Shown here piece by piece: positions 1,912-5,605 of a stretch of DNA of 5,605 bases. A program made the translations under genes and the position numbers. The stretch is taken from positions 1 through 5,605 of IMG/VR virus record IMGVR_UViG_3300011730_000006, one strand, 5' to 3'. Below the pieces are notes generated by a model. The model was not told where the DNA came from, made no database searches, and worked only from the letters and a program-made list of their open reading frames with translations. Source of the DNA: a virus. Position 1 is the first letter of the stretch, and the number at the start of each line of letters is the position of its first letter.

Positions 1912-2189
1912 TGTGGTCAAAACTTGCTGATCTTTTTACGTCACTTCAAAAGGGTACTTTAAAAAATGTTCTTACTGGTGCCGGCTTAATGCTAGGTACT
2001 AACGCTATATTTTTAACGACGTTTTCTGCTGCTGTGAATGCATTAAAAAACTCTGTTAATTCAGTTTCAGTCGATGTTCTATCGCTTGCTCATATAGCAG
2101 GTTTCGACATAGCTATGTCACTCATCTTGGGTGCAATTGTCACCCGACTAACCATGAATTCTTCAAAATTGGTATTAAGAAAACAGTAG
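1911..2189 (+). CDS. Small hydrophobic minor coat protein (g6p-like), 92 aa
   Basis: It follows the g3p-like gene with a TAATG overlap. A strong SD site GGAGGA at 1899-1904 sits 6 nt upstream. Several hydrophobic segments are present (GAGLMLGTNAIFLTTFSAAV, IAGFDIAMSLILGAIV). The assignment is positional. Confidence 0.6.
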   Translation: MWSKLADLFTSLQKGTLKNVLTGAGLMLGTNAIFLTTFSAAVNALKNSVNSVSVDVLSLAHIAGFDIAMSLILGAIVTRLTMNSSKLVLRKQ

Positions 2190-2257
2190 CGACCAAAAGA
2201 CATCCGCGTCCGCTATCCCGTCGGCTCGCGCGGGTGCGGAGCGGTGTCTAGGGTCGC
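2189..2257 (+). other. GC-rich long imperfect hairpin (candidate packaging signal, minus-strand origin or attachment sequence)
   Basis: Hand-folded pairs are gcgacc(2189-2194)/ggtcgc(2252-2257), agaca(2198-2202)/tgtct(2245-2249), ccgc(2204-2207)/gcgg(2241-2244), ccgc(2210-2213)/gcgg(2236-2239) and cccg(2217-2220)/cggg(2231-2234). GC content is far above that of the neighbouring genes. Confidence 0.6.
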
Positions 2258-2273
2258 GATAGGGTAAAAAATT

Positions 2274-3713
2274 ATGTTGCATTTTATTACTGGTACACCT
2301 GGTGCGGGTAAAACTCTTTACGCTGTATCTTTAATTGTTAAATATGAAAATGAAAATGATAGGGCATTAATATATAACGCTGCTGCTATTAAACATAATC
2401 AAGAAATTATTGAGAAAAATAAACTACAGTCTTATTTTCTTTTATATACATATTTCAGTAAAAAGACTAAAAAACAAGAAACTGTTTTATTCGAACCTGA
2501 TCATTTTAATTATTTAACTGAGCAGAAAAGAACAGATAATATTTTTCTTGATATTCAGTTTTATAATGGTATCTGTAAATCTATTAAAAATGATTTAGAT
2601 ATTGATTTAAAACATTTAAAAGATGTACGTCATATATATGCCAATATTGATGGTTTAAAAGTACCTAATGTTAAACCTGCTGAAATTGATTGGCGTAAAT
2701 GTCCTGATGGTTCTATTATTTTCTATGATGAGATTCAGTTAATTCCTGAATATTCTACTGATAATAAGCAGGACAGAGAAAATATAATAAAAGAATTAAC
2801 TATTCATCGTCATCGAGCTTTTGATATATATGGAATCACTCAGTTTCCTTCCTTGGTTAATACAAATTATCGTGCTGTTGTCGGTTTACATTATCACTTG
2901 CATCGTGGCTGGGGTGCGCCTTCCGCAACAGTTTACGTTTGGGCAAATTGTCGAGATAAGCCTAATAGTCTGGGTAATAAGCTTACTGCTGAACGTGATT
3001 TTCGATTTAATTATCCTAAAAAGTTGTATCAATACTACGAATCAGCTACTGCAAATACCGTTAAGTTGCGCGTACCTCTTAAATTATTCGCAATCCTTCT
3101 TATTCCAGTGGTCGGACTTGTTATGGTTGGTAATATGCTTTTTGGTGGCGGTAATAACTTTTTCGGTACAATTTTTGGAACAAAAGAAAAAACAGCGGAA
3201 GTAAAAAAAGAAACTTCCAATGTACCTACGGAAGTGAAAAAAGAAACTTCCAATCCTGATCTACTTGCTAACTCTCTCTCAGATCTATCACAAGAATGTC
3301 GAAAGGCTATCAATTTAGAAAAGCCTGAGTGTGTTAAATGGTTTAATGATTTAACTGCTACTAATGCATCAGTTTCAAAAAATGGTGTTGTAACAGTTTC
3401 ATATAACCCTGATCGTCCTTATGACTTTCATCCAGAGCCACAAGTACAAGTTCGTGACTATCCACGTTTAACCGGATGCGCACAATTTAATGGTACTTAT
3501 CGTGCTTATGATCAGCAGGGAAATGTTATGCCTAACATCTCACAAAGTGATTGTAAGCGCTGGATGAACGGTGAAAGAACGTTTGATTATACTAGAGCGC
3601 CTATTCAAGTTAGTGCACAACCTCAACAGCCTAAGCAAGAACAACAGACTACTAAATATGATGCTGAGTTCTTAGCTAAATATCAGCAAGCTAAAGCAGA
3701 GGGCTTGATATGA
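2274..3713 (+). CDS. Zot/pI-family phage assembly ATPase, 479 aa
   Basis: It has an N-terminal Walker A motif GTPGAGKT and a Walker B motif IIFYDE. The NIDGL motif and HRHRAFDI are typical of the Zot N-terminal domain. A single TM segment LFAILLIPVVGLVMVGNMLFGG is followed by a periplasmic C-terminal domain of about 185 aa. Its position after the g6p-like gene fits inovirus gene order. Confidence 0.92.
   Translation: MLHFITGTPGAGKTLYAVSLIVKYENENDRALIYNAAAIKHNQEIIEKNKLQSYFLLYTYFSKKTKKQETVLFEPDHFNYLTEQKRTDNIFLDIQFYNGICKSIKNDLDIDLKHLKDVRHIYANIDGLKVPNVKPAEIDWRKCPDGSIIFYDEIQLIPEYSTDNKQDRENIIKELTIHRHRAFDIYGITQFPSLVNTNYRAVVGLHYHLHRGWGAPSATVYVWANCRDKPNSLGNKLTAERDFRFNYPKKLYQYYESATANTVKLRVPLKLFAILLIPVVGLVMVGNMLFGGGNNFFGTIFGTKEKTAEVKKETSNVPTEVKKETSNPDLLANSLSDLSQECRKAINLEKPECVKWFNDLTATNASVSKNGVVTVSYNPDRPYDFHPEPQVQVRDYPRLTGCAQFNGTYRAYDQQGNVMPNISQSDCKRWMNGERTFDYTRAPIQVSAQPQQPKQEQQTTKYDAEFLAKYQQAKAEGLI
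3198..3254 (+). repeat. Tandem direct repeat with 33-nt period inside the Zot-like gene (EVKKETSN twice)
   Basis: gaagtaaaaaaagaaacttccaat (3198-3221) and gaagtgaaaaaagaaacttccaat (3231-3254) differ at 1 of 24 positions. They lie just after the TM segment. Confidence 0.9.
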
Positions 3714-3726
3714 ATTACAGAATTTC

Positions 3727-3740
3727 TTTTCCTTGATTAC
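3727..3740 (+). other. Degenerate second copy of the origin nick motif (ttttcCTTGATTac)
   Basis: It shares tttt(c)cttgat with the main motif at 3871-3881, in the same orientation, 143 nt upstream. Confidence 0.4.
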
Positions 3741-3771
3741 TTACCTTAATTTACTTCTAATATTAATTTAC

Positions 3772-3846
3772 AAAATTTTCGTTCAGGGGAATTCGAGACG
3801 GGTGAGTGCGCGAACCTGCGAGAAGGCGTAGTCTACGAAAAATTTT
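3772..3846 (+). other. GC-rich structured element closed by an A/T stem (candidate single-strand origin or packaging signal)
   Basis: aaaattttcgt (3772-3782) pairs with acgaaaaatttt (3835-3846) with one bulge. The enclosed approximately 52 nt is GC-rich (gagacgggtgagtgcgcgaacctgcgagaaggcg) within an AT-rich intergenic region. Confidence 0.5.
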
Positions 3847-3867
3847 CCGTGGTTTTTGCTTCTAGAA

Positions 3868-3893
3868 TCCTTTTCTTGATAATTAAGGGATAA
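3868..3893 (+). other. Putative double-strand origin (dso) nick region, pC194/phiX174-like: tccttttCTTG/ATAattaagggataa
   Basis: It contains the CTTGATA core (3875-3881) flanked by a T-rich tract and AAGGG. As I recall it, this closely matches the pC194 origin (tcttatCTTGATAataagggtaac) and the phiX174 nick site (aCTTG/ATA). It is on the same strand as the genes and directly upstream of a Rep_1-type rep gene. Confidence 0.65.
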
Positions 3894-3948
3894 TTCCACG
3901 TTATTAAAATATGTTGTATTATATGTGTGGCAAGGGTTTCGGGCTTGT

Positions 3949-3977
3949 TTGCAAGATCAAAAAAAATCCCGTATTAT
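3949..3977 (+). promoter_or_regulatory. Sigma70-like promoter for rep: TTGCAA - 17 nt - TATTAT
   Basis: The -35 element TTGCAA is at 3949-3954 and the -10 element TATTAT at 3972-3977, with an exact 17-nt spacer. It lies 17-38 nt upstream of the candidate rep ATGs. Confidence 0.5.
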
Positions 3978-4014
3978 TCAAAGTGCTTACTCAATGAATA
4001 TATCCGGGATTTGT

Positions 4015-4998
4015 ATGTCAAATATAACAGATTTGACTGCACTGCCCAAGTTTTTTCTTGTTGACTACTCCAAAGATGACAATATCTGGGATAAACAACG
4101 GGCGACAGCTCAGGCCGTGCAGGAGATTTATCATAAGACTAGCTTCGATGCTTATCAATTTGGTTATCTTACTTTCTTTAAATATGCTCAGCGTATAGAA
4201 AAATGTTCTAATATTCTCAAATTCGGTTTTACTGATGATGAGAAATTGAAGCTTAAGCAGACTTTTTTTTGCCGTGTTCGCTATTGTCCTGTCTGCCAAT
4301 GGCGCAGATCTATGATGTGGCGTGCTCGCTTTTTTCAGATGATGCCTGAGTTACAACAGAACTATCCTACTCATCGTTGGGTATTTTTAACATTAACAGT
4401 TAAGAACTGTGATATTTCCGAACTTAGGCTAAATTTATCTAGAATGTCTAAAGCCTGGAACAAGTTTATTAAATATAAAAAACTTTCTGCTATAGATGGT
4501 TGGGTTCGTACCACTGAAGTTACTCGTTCTAAGGATGGTTCTGCTCATCCACATTTTCATTGCTTACTTATGGTAAAACCCAGTTTTTTTTCTGGTAAAA
4601 GCTATGTTAAGAACTCTGAATTTCGCGAATTATGGGCTAAAGCTTTAGAAGTTGATTATTTACCTATTACTCATGTTAAAGCTGTTAAGGGTGATTCTCC
4701 AGATAAGGCTGTTCTTGAAACTTTGAAATATAGTACTAAGCCTGATGATTTTTTTGACGATCATGATTGGTTTCGTCAGCTCACTCAGCAAACTCATAAG
4801 CTTCGTTTTGTTGCTACTGGTGGAATTCTTAAAGGTTGTCTTAAGAATGAAGATGATATAACTAATGAGGATATGATTAATACTGAAGGTGAAACTGAGG
4901 ATGATACAGATAAAAGACGCCTTGCATTTTTTTATAATGATGATTTAAGACGTTATCATCGTGCTCCAAATTATGATGAAAATATAGATGATGATTAA
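4015..4998 (+). CDS. rep: Rolling-circle replication initiator, Rep_1 (pC194/pUB110) family HUH endonuclease
   Basis: The conserved motifs appear in order: the Cys cluster CRVRYCPVCQWRR, motif 1 FLTLTV, the HUH motif HPHFHCLL (4546-4560 encodes HPHFH), and the catalytic Tyr motif LETLKYSTK (Tyr codon 4729-4731). The start is uncertain. ATG 4015 has a weak GGGA SD site, ATG 3994 is also possible, and the track's GTG at 3925 overlaps the predicted promoter. Confidence 0.9.
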   Translation: MSNITDLTALPKFFLVDYSKDDNIWDKQRATAQAVQEIYHKTSFDAYQFGYLTFFKYAQRIEKCSNILKFGFTDDEKLKLKQTFFCRVRYCPVCQWRRSMMWRARFFQMMPELQQNYPTHRWVFLTLTVKNCDISELRLNLSRMSKAWNKFIKYKKLSAIDGWVRTTEVTRSKDGSAHPHFHCLLMVKPSFFSGKSYVKNSEFRELWAKALEVDYLPITHVKAVKGDSPDKAVLETLKYSTKPDDFFDDHDWFRQLTQQTHKLRFVATGGILKGCLKNEDDITNEDMINTEGETEDDTDKRRLAFFYNDDLRRYHRAPNYDENIDDD

Positions 4999-5018
4999 AG
5001 GGGCTTTAGCCCCTTTTT
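4997..5018. terminator. Bidirectional rho-independent terminator between convergent rep and the minus-strand regulator gene
   Basis: aaaGGGGC-ttta-GCCCCttttt forms a 5-bp G/C stem (5000-5004 with 5009-5013) flanked by an A-run and a T-run. It is therefore functional in both orientations. Confidence 0.8.
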
Positions 5019-5181
5019 AATTTTCAAATAAACTTTGTTGTTTTTCTCTTTTTAACTGCTCTGATAAAAATAATCTAAACATTTTATTTAATTCTCTATT
5101 ACTACGTAATTGTAGTAATTGTTCTGCTTCTTTTGGATATGATTTGGGATCGATTTTAATATTTGCTTGAATATATCTCAT
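5017..5181 (-). CDS. 54-aa putative transcriptional regulator, RHH-like (not in ORF track)
   Basis: The hand translation is MRYIQANIKIDPKSYPKEAEQLLQLRSNRELNKMFRLFLSEQLKREKQQSLFEN. The SD site GAGGG (plus-strand 5189-5193) is 7 nt upstream of the ATG (5181-5179). The pattern of a short N-terminal beta-strand (YIQANIKI), helix, turn (RSN) and helix fits the RHH fold. It is the only minus-strand gene and is divergent from the ssDNA-binding/structural operon, like the repressors of temperate inoviruses. Confidence 0.55.
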   Translation of the reverse strand: MRYIQANIKIDPKSYPKEAEQLLQLRSNRELNKMFRLFLSEQLKREKQQSLFEN

Positions 5182-5299: not shown

Positions 5300-5551
5300 A
5301 TGTCTATTCACGAAATTCGAGTACCATTAAATAATGTAGTTATTAAGACTAAAAATAATAAATCGGGTAATCCTTTTTATTATTTTGAAGTGTTAGAACC
5401 GCAATGGAAATTTTTACAAGTTAATAATAATCCTCGTGTTGAATCTCTCCTAGCTGAGTTTGCTAAAACTCAGCAGCCAATTAATTTAAATGCACTACTT
5501 CAAAAAGATAGTTTTGTTATTGATGACAATTCTTTTCAGCTTCAAAAGTAG
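5300..5551 (+). CDS. ssDNA-binding protein (g5p-like), 83 aa
   Basis: The SD site GAGGA (5289-5293) is 6 nt upstream. Its size and its position at the head of the structural operon match g5p (87 aa in Ff). The N-terminal pattern MSIHEIRVP...KNNKSGNPFYYFE is reminiscent of Ff g5p MIKVEIKPS...SRQGKPYSLNE. This is a positional and weak-motif assignment. Confidence 0.55.
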   Translation: MSIHEIRVPLNNVVIKTKNNKSGNPFYYFEVLEPQWKFLQVNNNPRVESLLAEFAKTQQPINLNALLQKDSFVIDDNSFQLQK

Positions 5552-5605
5552 GTTTTAAAAAATGGCATATGTCTGTGAAGTTTTAGACGCTGCACAAGCC
5601 TGTGT
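5483..5605. repeat. Terminal overlap (right copy), identical to 1-123
   Basis: Direct comparison with bases 1-123. The offset is 5482 nt. Confidence 0.95.
5562..5605 (+). CDS. 5' fragment (redundant copy) of the 61-aa membrane protein gene at 80-265
   Basis: It is identical to 80-123 because of the terminal overlap. Confidence 0.5.
   Translation, partial: MAYVCEVLDAAQAC

What the first reader, a model, noticed from the sequence alone, without database searches (positions are those of the whole stretch)
3721..3900. pC194/phiX174-like CTTGATA nick site upstream of a Rep_1-type Rep, with a second degenerate copy 143 nt upstream
The Rep carries the Rep_1 family signature (CxxxxCPxCxWRR, FLTLTV, HPHFH, KY). 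The intergenic region contains tccttttCTTGATAattaagggataa. As I recall them, this nearly matches the pC194 dso (..tcttatCTTGATAataagggtaac..) and the phiX174 nick core. The predicted nick is between G3878 and A3879 on the coding (packaged) strand. A second copy ttttcCTTGATTac lies at 3727-3740 in direct orientation. Next to it, ccttaatt (3744-3751) is complementary to aattaagg (3881-3888) next to the main site, so in ssDNA the two motifs could be brought together. Two Rep sites in direct orientation could act as separate initiation and termination signals. Alternatively they could allow Rep-mediated excision of the 143-nt segment that holds the GC-rich hairpin.
Basis: partly seen in the sequence, partly recalled or inferred. 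Interest (0 to 1): 0.7.

Follow-up and report, generated by a model that had tools for sequence, protein, structure and literature searches.

The report
Rolling-circle origin of a filamentous phage
The CTTGATA site at 3875-3881 is very probably the genuine plus-strand replication origin of a small filamentous phage that uses a plasmid-type (pC194/pKYM-like) Rep protein, which is ordinary, whereas the proposed "second copy" 143 nt upstream is a different conserved box that resembles a nick site only through one base change.

Summary
The window is a circular 5,482-bp inovirus-like genome (Zot, DUF2523, coat-like genes) with a Rep_1 initiator (Pfam E 1.6e-81). Rep keeps the pC194 catalytic residues: E168/E235/Y239 align with E142/E210/Y214.

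The main site is real. CCTTTTCTTGATAATTAAGGGATAATTCCAC (3869-3899) is the genome's best match to the 36-nt pC194 origin. It scores 39.5 bits against a matrix built from 18 related origins; shuffled genomes reach at most 15.1. It sits 140 nt before rep, as in relatives and in small Acinetobacter and pKYM-like plasmids.

The two-site idea is not supported.
- The upstream CTTGATT scores -11.6 bits.
- No relative has CTTGAT there. It aligns to a conserved box, YYCCCTGAYTAC, in which one C-to-T change creates CTTGAT.
- The 8-nt complementarity is window-specific (P about 0.05).
- The "GC-rich hairpin" folds no better than shuffles.
- Two near-identical strains keep the whole segment.

Extras: the nick core is either CTTG or ATTT across 28 aligned origins, never mixed, which is a compensatory pair. 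A candidate antisense RNA and a candidate minus-strand origin are shared with tiny plasmids.

Verdict: new member of a known kind; modest interest.

The parts
3869..3899 (+). Double-strand (plus-strand) origin block, CCTTTTCTTGATAATTAAGGGATAATTCCAC
   Evidence: Best match in the genome to the pC194 36-nt origin: score 29, reached by 1 of 300 genome shuffles and 0 of 2000 intergenic shuffles. It scores 39.5 bits on a matrix built from 18 relatives, against a shuffle maximum of 15.1. It is conserved in relatives and plasmids.
3875..3881 (+). Nick core CTTGATA. The nick is predicted between G3878 and A3879.
   Evidence: Inferred by homology to pC194 and to the phiX174 origin, which is annotated at the A of CTTG|ATA. 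The cleavage position itself was not tested.
3871..3882 (+). Short imperfect inverted repeat, TTTTC-TT-GATAA, centred on the invariant TT just 5' of the nick
   Evidence: The -4/-1 pair is C:G in 13 and A:T in 15 of 28 related origins, and never unpaired. The window has a T.T mismatch at -6/+2.
3883..3893 (+). TTAAGGGATAA, the most invariant part of the origin; probable Rep-binding element (inferred)
   Evidence: Invariant columns in 28 origins and in 11 aligned intergenic regions. It corresponds to AAGGGTAAC of pC194.
4015..4998 (+). rep gene (Rep_1, 327 aa from ATG 4015). The 357-aa GTG start at 3925 is probably too long.
   Evidence: Pfam PF01446, E 1.6e-81. E168, H180, H182, E235, K238 and Y239 are invariant against pC194 RepA and pUB110 Rep. 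Most relatives' genes are called at or near the ATG equivalent. A conserved promoter lies inside the longer ORF.
3949..3977 (+). Sigma-70-like rep promoter, TTGCAA-N17-TATTAT
   Evidence: It reads TTGACA-N17-TAGTAT or TAAATT in relatives and Acinetobacter plasmids.
3959..4012 (-). Long hairpin followed by a T-run on the minus strand: terminator-like end of a candidate ~55-nt antisense RNA covering the rep ribosome-binding site
   Evidence: Fold z -5.70, 0 of 200 shuffles. Arms at 3964-3974 and 4002-4012. Both arms change together in relatives and plasmids.
4021..4048 (-). Promoter-like site that would start the candidate antisense RNA at about 4014
   Evidence: A site at the same position (-10 ending at ATG+6) is found in L048, L049 and L054, and one at ATG+0 in L005. 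It was not detected in L051, L052, L053, L055 or L057.
3723..3740 (+). It is homologous to the family box YYCCCTGAYTAC and is a candidate part of the minus-strand origin.
   Evidence: Plus strand only, upstream of the origin, in L048, L053, L054 and plasmids L057 and L059. A looser variant ending TAA is in L041. 11 columns are invariant in the 6-sequence alignment; 7 lie within the 10-nt box core CCCTGAYTAC and 3 more in the pyrimidine run. Origin-matrix score -11.6.
3786..3836 (+). GC-rich island (61% GC) containing GGTGAGTGCGCGAACCTG. It resembles the hairpin-plus-GAACTG element of relatives, but the stem is degraded here.
   Evidence: Composition. No significant fold, z +0.33. Relatives have GGGGGCGGAGTGCCCCCGAACTGAC, with stem bases that change together.
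3744..3751 (+). CCTTAATT, complementary to 3881-3888; judged a chance match
3704..3710 (+). It has no origin context.
   Evidence: Origin-matrix score -34.5. Absent at this place in the relatives.
2189..2257 (+). The genome's strongly stable ssDNA hairpin, in the gap between the DUF2523 gene and zot. Candidate packaging signal or minus-strand origin.
   Evidence: -25.5 kcal/mol, z -5.29, 0 of 200 shuffles. Long hairpins occur at the same gap in L050 (z -8.06) and L049 (z -2.80), but not in L052 or L053.

Best explanation
The window is a circular 5.5-kb filamentous phage whose plus strand is replicated by a plasmid-type Rep_1 initiator acting at one double-strand origin, 3869-3899.

**Proposed mechanism (inferred by homology).**
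1. Rep is made from the promoter at 3949-3977.
2. Rep recognises the invariant TTAAGGGATAA element.
3. Using Tyr239, Rep cuts the plus strand between G3878 and A3879 and stays linked to the 5' end.
4. Host polymerase and helicase extend from G3878 around the circle.
5. The regenerated copy of the same site is cut and the ends are joined. Glu235 plays the role of pC194 Glu210. A single-stranded plus circle is released, for conversion to the double-stranded form or for export through Zot.

One site serves both initiation and termination, as in pC194.

**The upstream CTTGATT (3732-3738).** It is not a second Rep site. It lies in a conserved pyrimidine-rich box (family consensus YYCCCTGAYTAC). Together with adjacent GC-rich elements, this box is shared with Rep-only 1.4-1.7-kb Acinetobacter plasmids. 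It is most likely part of the minus-strand (single-strand) origin. A single C-to-T change in this genome makes it read CTTGAT.

**What is shown:** family membership of Rep, homology and uniqueness of the origin, non-conservation of the second motif.

**What is inferred:** the exact nick position, the Rep-binding element, and the minus-origin role of the box.
For: **Rep.** Rep_1 at E 1.6e-81. The catalytic Glu/His/Glu/Tyr residues are aligned and invariant against pC194 RepA and pUB110 Rep, and the numbering matches E142/E210/Y214.

**Origin.**
- It is the single best match in the genome to the pC194 36-nt origin.
- It scores 39.5 bits on a matrix built without the window, against a shuffle maximum of 15.1. 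The next best site in the genome scores 4.6.
- The core starts 140-142 nt before the rep ATG in the window, L048, L053 and L054. In plasmid p130D3 the TTAAGG anchor lies 132 nt before the ATG, as in the window.
- Origin and rep are on the same strand, as in pC194 and pUB110.
- 12 metagenomic sites with this motif have a Rep_1 gene downstream.

**Experimental precedent.** In an Acinetobacter Rep_1 replicon (pTS236), RepA nicks the plasmid, binds the origin, needs its Tyr, and an ssDNA intermediate is seen (PMC3715749). CTTGATA is recognised as the Rep_1 nicking site in Acinetobacter-like circles (PMC10378824).

**Second motif.** It scores -11.6 bits. It aligns to the conserved box. The box and a hairpin are shared with a 1,425-bp Rep-only plasmid whose non-coding DNA has little to hold beyond replication signals. 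The stretch AGAGGGGGCGGAGTGCCCCCGAACTGAC is identical in phage L048 and plasmid L059.

**Segment retained.** The intergenic region is intact in two other strains.
Against: - No cleavage or 5'-end mapping exists for this element. The nick position rests on homology.
- In about half of the related origins the base before the predicted nick is T, not G (ATTT|ATA). The G is therefore not itself essential.
- The window's box now carries a perfect CTTGAT core. HUH enzymes can cut single-stranded DNA at short cores (my knowledge, not tested here), so occasional cleavage there cannot be ruled out.
- The minus-origin role of the box is an inference. The window's GC island does not fold significantly. 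The ssoA hallmark TAGCGW is at chance level. Relative L049 lacks box and island in its zot-rep gap.
Confidence: 0.75

Rival explanations
1. 3732-3738 and 3875-3881 are both functional Rep sites in direct orientation. They serve as separate initiation and termination signals, or they mediate programmed excision of the 143-nt segment, helped by pairing of 3744-3751 with 3881-3888 in ssDNA.
For: - Both motifs contain CTTGAT on the same strand, after T/C-rich runs: 13-nt direct repeat, 85% identical.
- The 8-nt pairing appears in the minimum-energy and centroid folds.
- P for such a complement is about 0.047.
Against: - The second motif scores -11.6 bits and lacks the invariant TTAAGGGATAA.
- No relative has CTTGAT there.
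- No relative has the complementary 8-mer.
- The fold z-score is -1.29.
- A better partial copy lies inside zot at 2540-2553.
- L049 lacks the segment altogether.
- Strains L061 and L062 retain it.
- pC194-type replicons need only one site (my knowledge of the pC194 literature).
Confidence: 0.06
2. Accidental pseudo-sites. The CTTGAT-containing sequences at 3704, 3732 and 2547 are not selected features. They occasionally act as weak termination sites for Rep on the displaced strand and give rise to rare deletion (miniphage-like) genomes. Illegitimate recombination of this kind is described for the pC194 origin (my knowledge). This is compatible with the best explanation.
For: - Exact core matches on the displaced strand.
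- The window's box has the full CTTGAT core and satisfies the -4/-1 pairing rule.
- Termination is known to need less sequence than initiation in pC194 (my knowledge; the paper is not held).
Against: - No deletion variants are seen in three independent assemblies, although assemblies would not show minor species.
- The flanks differ from the origin at positions that are nearly invariant in 28 origins.
Confidence: 0.15
3. The conserved block 3869-3899 is mainly a transcriptional element (a promoter or operator for rep, or for a leader transcript), and the true nick site lies elsewhere.
For: - TTCCAC-N17-TATTAT overlaps the block, read directly from the sequence. The promoter scan did not list it.
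- In pTS236 the -10 of the repA promoter lies within the origin motif (PMC3715749).
Against: - The block is homologous to the experimentally used pC194 origin over 24 nt, not only to a promoter.
- It is kept in plasmids where the downstream -10-like hexamer is not (L057).
- The better conserved promoter is 3949-3977.
- No other site in the genome resembles any Rep_1 origin.
Confidence: 0.04

Closest known systems
pC194 double-strand origin and RepA (Staphylococcus aureus; Rep_1 prototype)
   Same: - Rep_1 fold family, with E142/E210/Y214 equivalents present.
- The origin is upstream of rep and on the same strand.
- CTTATCTTGATAA-TAAGGG-TAA against CTTTTCTTGATAATTAAGGGATAA: 21 of 22 aligned bases, two 1-nt gaps.
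   Different: - Only 30% protein identity.
- The window lacks the pC194 inverted repeat AAGGGTAACTA...TAGTTACCCTT to the right of the nick (read directly).
- The host element is a phage, not a plasmid.
pKYM-like small plasmids of Enterobacteriaceae (2,089-bp Shigella sonnei plasmid L058) and 1.4-1.7-kb Acinetobacter Rep-only plasmids (L057 p130D3, L059 pANC7881.5)
   Same: - Closest characterised-type Reps: about 46-51% in the plasmid search, 50-52% in the alignment.
- Same origin block, CCTTGTATTTAT(A/T)(C/A)TTAAGGGATAA.
- p130D3 and pANC7881.5 also share the anchor-to-ATG spacing (132 nt), the promoter and the pre-ATG hairpin. These two Acinetobacter plasmids share the box and GC elements as well.
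- The pKYM origin is described as a core plus a downstream enhancer, 173 bp (PMC4439123). This fits the roughly 140-nt conserved stretch here.
   Different: - The core is ATTT|ATA instead of CTTG|ATA.
- In L058 the origin lies about 260 nt before the rep ATG, not 132, and no box is present.
- These plasmids carry no phage genes.
- I could not verify that L058 is pKYM itself, and the pKYM papers are not held.
pTS236 / Sphinx 2.36 / BMMF group 2 circles (Acinetobacter-associated Rep_1 replicons)
   Same: Rep_1 plus a CTTGATA origin upstream of rep, in Moraxellaceae-type DNA. Experimental nicking, origin binding and an ssDNA intermediate are reported for pTS236 (PMC3715749; PMC10378824).
   Different: They are 2.2-2.4 kb without Zot or coat genes. 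The window is a full inovirus-like genome.
phiX174 gene A origin
   Same: Shares the heptamer CTTGATA, and the origin is annotated at the A after CTTG.
   Different: Protein A is a different family (Phage_GPA; PMC5714925). Similarity is confined to the core. The resemblance is functional, not membership.
Inoviruses with Rep_1 initiators (Clostridium phage CAK1; porcine and lemur gut 'Inovirus sp.' / Dulem viruses; Acinetobacter phage M02 for Zot)
   Same: Filamentous-phage gene set combined with a Rep_1 gene. Zot is 31% identical to Dulem virus 65 and about 32% to Acinetobacter phage M02.
   Different: - Reps are only 25-45% identical over partial length.
- No nucleotide match to any deposited phage.
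- This Rep is closer to small plasmid Reps than to any deposited phage Rep.
Ff (M13/f1) intergenic region
   Same: A single non-coding region before or near the replication gene holds the plus origin. Structured ssDNA elements are present for minus-strand synthesis or packaging (general knowledge).
   Different: The initiator family is different (gpII, not Rep_1), and the nick sequence is unrelated. The strongest hairpin here lies in a different gap, 2189-2257.

Membership tests
pC194-family (Rep_1, PF01446) rolling-circle replicon | Initiator matches PF01446 above the curated cut-off | tested here: met
   273.9 bits against a cut-off of 33.2, E 1.6e-81, covering profile positions 2-252 of 253
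pC194-family (Rep_1, PF01446) rolling-circle replicon | HUH metal-binding motif, plus the catalytic Tyr with Glu four residues before it and a second Glu (pC194 Y214, E210, E142) | tested here: met
   H180/H182, E168, E235, K238 and Y239 are invariant in the alignment with pC194 RepA, pUB110 Rep, the pKYM-like Rep and p130D3 Rep
pC194-family (Rep_1, PF01446) rolling-circle replicon | Origin with the CTTGATA-type core on the rep strand, upstream of rep, similar to authentic origins beyond chance | tested here: met
   1 of 300 genome shuffles and 0 of 2000 intergenic shuffles reach the score. 39.5 bits on the family matrix.
pC194-family (Rep_1, PF01446) rolling-circle replicon | Rep cuts between G and A of the core, and single-stranded circles are produced | not testable with these tools
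   Needs in vitro nicking, primer extension on replicative form, or detection of ssDNA
Inovirus (filamentous phage) | pI/Zot-type morphogenesis ATPase, the marker used to define inoviruses (PMC6813254) | tested here: met
   PF05707, E 1.4e-13. PHROG Zot-like, E 4.8e-65.
Inovirus (filamentous phage) | Small circular genome, genes on one strand, small membrane-type coat proteins and minor coat genes | tested here: met
   1-123 repeats 5483-5605, giving a 5,482-bp unit. DUF2523 / minor protein PHROG. Relatives' 68-100-aa ORFs hit Phage_Coat_B: a full hit in L051, weak hits in L048, L049 and L054. The window's own coat ORF has no family hit.
Two-site origin (second functional Rep site at 3727-3740) | The second site resembles related origins beyond chance | tested here: not met
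   -11.6 bits, and 200 of 200 shuffled genomes have a better site. It lacks TTAAGGGATAA.
Two-site origin (second functional Rep site at 3727-3740) | The second site and the pairing partner are conserved in relatives | tested here: not met
   Relatives read CCCTGATTAC, CTCTGATTAC or CCCTGACTAC. CCTTAATT is absent in 11 relatives.
ssoA-type single-strand origin | CS-6 (TAGCGT/A) in a hairpin loop, plus an RSB element | tested here: inconclusive
   TAGCGW occurs 3 times against 3.9 expected, none in the zot-rep gap. One lies at the base of the 2189-2257 hairpin. RSB was not tested.
Antisense-RNA (countertranscript) copy control of rolling-circle plasmids | A short minus-strand transcript unit overlapping the rep translation start: a promoter, then a hairpin with a U-run | tested here: inconclusive
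   Hairpin z -5.70 with T8. Promoter-like site at the same position in the window, L048, L049 and L054, but not detected in five other relatives. No Rfam family matches. No transcript data.

The most novel reading that the evidence does not exclude
The nick core of this whole Rep_1 clade exists in only two forms, CTTG|A and ATTT|A. The bases at -4 and -1 always change together so that they stay complementary. In many members they extend a short inverted repeat (TTAT-C-TT-G-ATAA or TTAT-A-TT-T-ATAA). This would mean that Rep_1 initiators read a tiny hairpin, or a single base pair closing a TT turn, at the cleavage site rather than the G itself. No solved Rep_1 structure could be found.

In addition, the phage shares its complete replication cassette with Rep-only 1.4-1.7-kb plasmids: origin, promoter, antisense-RNA hairpin, box and GC hairpin. 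Those plasmids could therefore be satellites that are packaged by such phages.
Probability: 0.25. Interest if true: 0.55.

Novelty: new member of a known kind. Interest (0 to 1): 0.3.

Why it matters
**The finding itself.** It annotates the plus-strand origin of an undescribed inovirus lineage, probably of Moraxellaceae. It shows that the lineage's replication module is the same cassette found in tiny cryptic plasmids of Acinetobacter and enterobacteria. This fits the known pattern of gene exchange between inoviruses and plasmids. The annotation is useful but not a surprise.

**The two side observations.**
- If the paired -4/-1 positions reflect a structural requirement at the cleavage site, they give a simple, testable rule for Rep_1 origin recognition. 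The test is single against double mutants.
- If the Rep-only plasmids carry the phage's cis signals, they may move as phage satellites. This bears on how the very common small Acinetobacter and SPHINX/BMMF-like circles spread.

Tried and rejected
- **Megablast of the genome against deposited phages:** no match.
- **Rfam at permissive threshold:** only two sub-threshold snoRNA hits, which are chance.
- **tRNA/tmRNA scan:** none.
- **PDB sequence search with Rep:** nothing relevant.
- **Classic papers** on the pC194 and pKYM origins and the Khan and del Solar reviews are not held. Statements about the 18-bp termination signal, Glu210 hydrolysis and pC194 illegitimate recombination therefore rest on my own knowledge.
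- **ssoA hallmark TAGCGW:** at chance level.
- **Terminator scan:** it found nothing in 3600-4300 because its loop limit is 8 nt. The pre-ATG hairpin has a longer loop and was evaluated by folding instead.
- **The window's GC island as a homologue of the CGGAGTG-loop hairpin:** there is sequence resemblance (GAGTGC..CGAAC.TG), but no stem and no significant fold. It is left as "degraded or different".
- **Rep residues that segregate with CTTG against ATTT cores:** none found in 24 sequences. Only hypervariable columns rank high. My ORF extraction lost 7 sequences, so power is low.
- **A DnaG-primase (CTG) reading of the box and of GAAC(C)TG next to the hairpins:** this was only read by eye and was not tested, so it is not claimed.
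- **IHF-site reading of the TTGAT motifs:** checked by eye against the consensus as I remember it. It does not fit.
Full report
**What the window is.** Bases 1-123 repeat at 5483-5605, so the window is one circular unit of 5,482 bp with 36.7% GC.
- All large ORFs are on the plus strand.
- 2274-3713 is a Zot/pI-type ATPase. Pfam gives E 1.4e-13 and the PHROG Zot-like family gives E 4.8e-65.
- 1911-2189 is a DUF2523 minor virion protein. 535-1911 matches a phage family of unknown function at E 3.4e-91.
- 4015-4998 is a Rep_1 initiator with E 1.6e-81.
- This is an inovirus-like genome. It has no nucleotide match among deposited phages.
- Its Zot is 31% identical to Dulem virus 65 and about 32% to Acinetobacter phage M02.
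- Rep_1 genes do occur in deposited inoviruses (Clostridium phage CAK1 and porcine "Inovirus sp."), but at 25-45% identity.
- The closest annotated Reps are in 1.4-1.7-kb Acinetobacter plasmids (about 50%) and in 2.09-kb pKYM-like plasmids of Shigella and E. coli (46.5%).
- Moraxella, Psychrobacter, Tatumella and many cyanobacterial contigs follow.

**Checking the observation.** The recalled pC194 origin is also right. The pC194 record contains TTCTTTCTTATCTTGATAATAAGGGTAACTATTGCC on the rep strand, about 190 nt upstream of repA. A paper that uses this origin lists the same 36-nt string (PMC7072734). The phiX174 record annotates its origin at the A after CTTG.

- CTTGATA occurs four times in the window against 1.2 expected. 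Exact plus-strand copies lie at 3704-3710, in the last codons of zot, and at 2547-2553.
- The "GC-rich hairpin" between the two motifs is not a significant structure. Its z-score is +0.33, and 119 of 200 shuffles fold as well.

**Is the main site more than chance?** Yes, by three independent tests.
- *Match to pC194.* Local alignment of the pC194 36-nt origin against both strands of the genome puts its single best hit exactly at 3870-3893. CTTTTCTTGATAATTAAGGGATAA aligns with CTTATCTTGATAA-TAAGGG-TAA at score 29. Only 1 of 300 dinucleotide shuffles of the genome reaches this, and 0 of 2000 shuffles of the intergenic region do.
- *Match to relatives.* I built a position matrix from 18 related origins, excluding the window. 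It scores 3867-3896 at 39.5 bits. The next best site in the genome scores 4.6, and the best site in 200 shuffled genomes scores at most 15.1.
- *Conservation.* Eight related phage contigs (Rep 71-85% identical) carry the block. In L048, L053 and L054 the core starts 140-142 nt before the rep ATG, as in the window. The Acinetobacter plasmid p130D3 has the TTAAGG anchor 132 nt before the ATG, as in the window. pANC7881.5, the Shigella plasmid (about 260 nt upstream), Moraxella and several cyanobacterial contigs also carry it. In 28 aligned origins the invariant columns are TT at -3/-2, A at +1, and T.AGG.ATAA downstream.

**Rep.** In an alignment with pC194 RepA, pUB110 Rep, the pKYM-like Rep and p130D3 Rep, the window protein keeps E168, H180, H182, E235, K238 and Y239. 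These align with pC194 E142, the HUH histidines, E210 and Y214, and that numbering is reproduced by the pC194 ORF. From my knowledge of the pC194 literature, those are the catalytic residues. Tyr makes the covalent link at initiation, and Glu210 replaces a second Tyr at termination. The 357-aa GTG start at 3925 used by the automatic gene call is probably too long. Most relatives' genes are called at or near the ATG equivalent, and a conserved promoter lies inside the extension.

**The proposed second copy.**
- On the origin matrix, 3732 scores -11.6 bits, 3704 scores -34.5 and 2547 scores -21.0. Every shuffled genome contains something better.
- Against the pC194 origin these three sites score 14-18, below the mean best score of shuffles, which is 21.2.
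The total count of 4 is reached by 9 of 200 shuffles, and that count includes the origin itself.
- None of the relatives has CTTGAT in the zot-rep gap apart from the origin.
- Instead, 3723-3740 aligns with a box found on the plus strand upstream of the origin. The box reads TTTCCCTGACTAC in L048, CCCCTCTGATTAC in L053 and L054, and TTCCCTGATTAC or CCTCCCTGATTAC in plasmids L057 and L059. A looser variant, TCCCTCTGACTAA, is in L041.
- In a six-sequence alignment, 7 of the 11 invariant columns lie within the 10-nt box core CCCTGAYTAC and 3 more in the pyrimidine run before it.
- The window differs from CCCTGATTAC by one C-to-T change, and that change is what produces CTTGAT.

**The pairing idea.** The 8-mer CCTTAATT does pair with AATTAAGG in the minimum-energy and centroid ssDNA folds of the intergenic region. 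However, the fold as a whole is not better than shuffles, with z -1.29. A complement of 8 nt or more to the 26-nt site arises in 4.7% of shuffled upstream regions. None of 11 related elements has it, and their longest complements are 6-7 nt.

Two independent assemblies of nearly the same phage, at 97.4% and 98.4% genome identity, keep the whole intergenic region. There is one substitution in 347 nt (A3753T) and no deletion. Relative L049 has a 168-nt gap with no box and no GC island, yet it keeps the origin. I conclude that the two-site and excision interpretation is not supported. Rare accidental cleavage at CTTGAT cores cannot be excluded.

**What the upstream elements probably are.** The box lies next to GC-rich hairpins whose loop CGGAGTG is constant while the stem changes on both sides. 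The stem is GGGGG/CCCCC in L048 and L059, a longer G/C run in L052, GCTCAG/CTGAGC in L053 and GGGG/CCCC in L055. The string AGAGGGGGCGGAGTGCCCCCGAACTGAC is identical in phage L048 and in the 1,425-bp plasmid L059. That plasmid encodes only Rep, so its non-coding DNA has little to hold except the plus origin, the minus origin and copy control. The shared box and hairpin are therefore most simply parts of a minus-strand (single-strand) origin.

This is an inference. The window's own GC island keeps only the sequence GAGTGC..CGAAC.TG without a stem. The ssoA hallmark is at chance. The genome's strongly stable hairpin is elsewhere, at 2189-2257, with -25.5 kcal/mol and z -5.29. Comparable hairpins lie in the same gap in L050 and L049.

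**Between origin and rep.** The roughly 130 nt from the nick to the ATG are conserved across the phages and the Acinetobacter plasmids.
- They contain a promoter, TTGCAA-N17-TATTAT (3949-3977; TTGACA in most relatives).
- They contain a long inverted repeat (3964-3974 and 4002-4012) whose arms change together in relatives.
- Read on the minus strand, this repeat is a stable hairpin (z -5.70) followed by T8.
- A minus-strand promoter-like site ends 6 nt inside rep in the window, L048, L049 and L054.
- This looks like a short antisense RNA over the rep ribosome-binding site, as in many rolling-circle plasmids. It is unproven.
- The extended conserved region agrees with the description of the pKYM origin as a core plus a downstream enhancer of 173 bp in total (PMC4439123).

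**An unexpected regularity.** Across the related origins, the four bases before the predicted nick are either CTTG or ATTT.
- In the 28-sequence alignment the -4/-1 pair is C:G 13 times, A:T 15 times and never anything else. No column shuffle (0 of 500) reaches the observed covariation, and shifted registers score far lower.
- A scan of metagenomes for TTNATAATTAAGGGATAA found 12 sites with a Rep_1 gene downstream, 7 CTTG and 5 ATTT. Matches without a Rep gene show every combination, including ATTG 9 times and CTTT 8 times.
- On a neighbour-joining tree of the Reps, the two forms are interleaved and need at least about five switches.
- In pC194, L075 and L012 the pair extends the inverted repeat TTATC-TT-GATAA. 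In L051 and L149 the repeat is TTATA-TT-TATAA. The window has TTTTC-TT-GATAA, with one mismatch.
- Possible readings are a very small hairpin or a base pair at the cleavage site, a symmetric protein contact, or two origin alleles exchanged by recombination.
- I found no Rep column that segregates with the two forms, but the test was weak. No Rep_1 structure is available.
- The practical consequence for the finding is that the G at 3878 is not essential as such across the family. The position of the nick is inferred, not shown.

**Comparison with what is known, and verdict.** CTTGATA origins upstream of Rep_1 genes are textbook for pC194 and pUB110 (PMC5714925). They are already described for Acinetobacter-type circles (PMC10378824). 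For pTS236 there is biochemical support (PMC3715749). Exchange of replication genes between inoviruses and plasmids is also established (PMC6813254).

The finding is therefore a correct but ordinary annotation of the plus origin of a new inovirus. The part that would have made it unusual, a functional second site, fails the tests. I rate it a new member of a known kind with interest 0.3. The paired nick-core positions and the plasmid-phage sharing of the whole replication cassette are the items worth a follow-up.

Noticed in passing
window 3875-3878, and origins in L005, L010-L015, L042, L048-L059, L068-L180: The nick core is either CTTG or ATTT, never CTTT or ATTG. Positions -4 and -1 stay complementary: 13 C:G, 15 A:T and 0 other in 28 origins, with at least about 5 switches on the Rep tree. 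The pair often extends a short inverted repeat, TTAT(C/A)-TT-(G/T)ATAA.
   Followed up: yes
window 3959-4048, minus strand: A stable hairpin (z -5.7) plus T8 lies on the minus strand immediately before the rep ATG. A minus-strand promoter-like site ends at ATG+6. Together they are a candidate ~55-nt antisense RNA over the rep ribosome-binding site. The hairpin arms change together in relatives and in Acinetobacter, Moraxella and Tatumella plasmids.
   Followed up: partly
L048 1222-1350; L059 470-600; L057 1296-1425; L052, L053, L055; window 3723-3836: The box YYCCCTGAYTAC and the GC hairpins with constant loop CGGAGTG are shared between phage contigs and 1.4-1.7-kb Rep-only Acinetobacter plasmids. 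A 28-nt stretch is identical in L048 and L059. This is a candidate minus-strand origin. It raises the question of whether such plasmids are phage satellites.
   Followed up: partly
window 2189-2257: A 61%-GC island between the DUF2523 gene and zot folds into a long hairpin (-25.5 kcal/mol, z -5.3). Long hairpins occur in the same gap in L050 (z -8.1) and L049 (z -2.8), but not in L052 or L053. It is a candidate packaging signal or minus origin.
   Followed up: partly
window 3925-4014: The automatic 357-aa Rep call starts at GTG 3925 and runs through the conserved rep promoter. Most relatives' genes are called at or near the ATG equivalent to 4015, so the real protein is probably 327 aa.
   Followed up: partly
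window 5017-5181, minus strand: A small minus-strand ORF (54 aa) lies just after rep. It is present at the same place in all eight relatives (52-58 aa; 85 aa in L052) and has no family match. It is possibly a regulator. A stem-loop-like sequence, aaaggggctttagcccctttt, lies between it and rep.
   Followed up: no
window about 3196-3260 (within zot): A direct repeat encodes EVKKETSN twice (AEVKKETSNVPTEVKKETSNPD) in the linker after the predicted membrane segment of Zot.
   Followed up: no
L051 1-30: Five tandem GCTTTT units lie directly upstream of the origin in this relative.
   Followed up: no
L015 about 4797-4850: In a cyanobacterial contig, two origin-like halves (..TTATTAGGGATAAATGGCGGAT..) face each other as an inverted repeat just upstream of rep. 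This recalls the AAGGGTAACTA/TAGTTACCCTT palindrome of pC194.
   Followed up: no
L061 and L062 against the window: Two other sequencing runs contain the same phage at 97-98% identity. The zot-rep intergenic region has 1 change in 347 nt, so it is more conserved than the genome average.
   Followed up: yes
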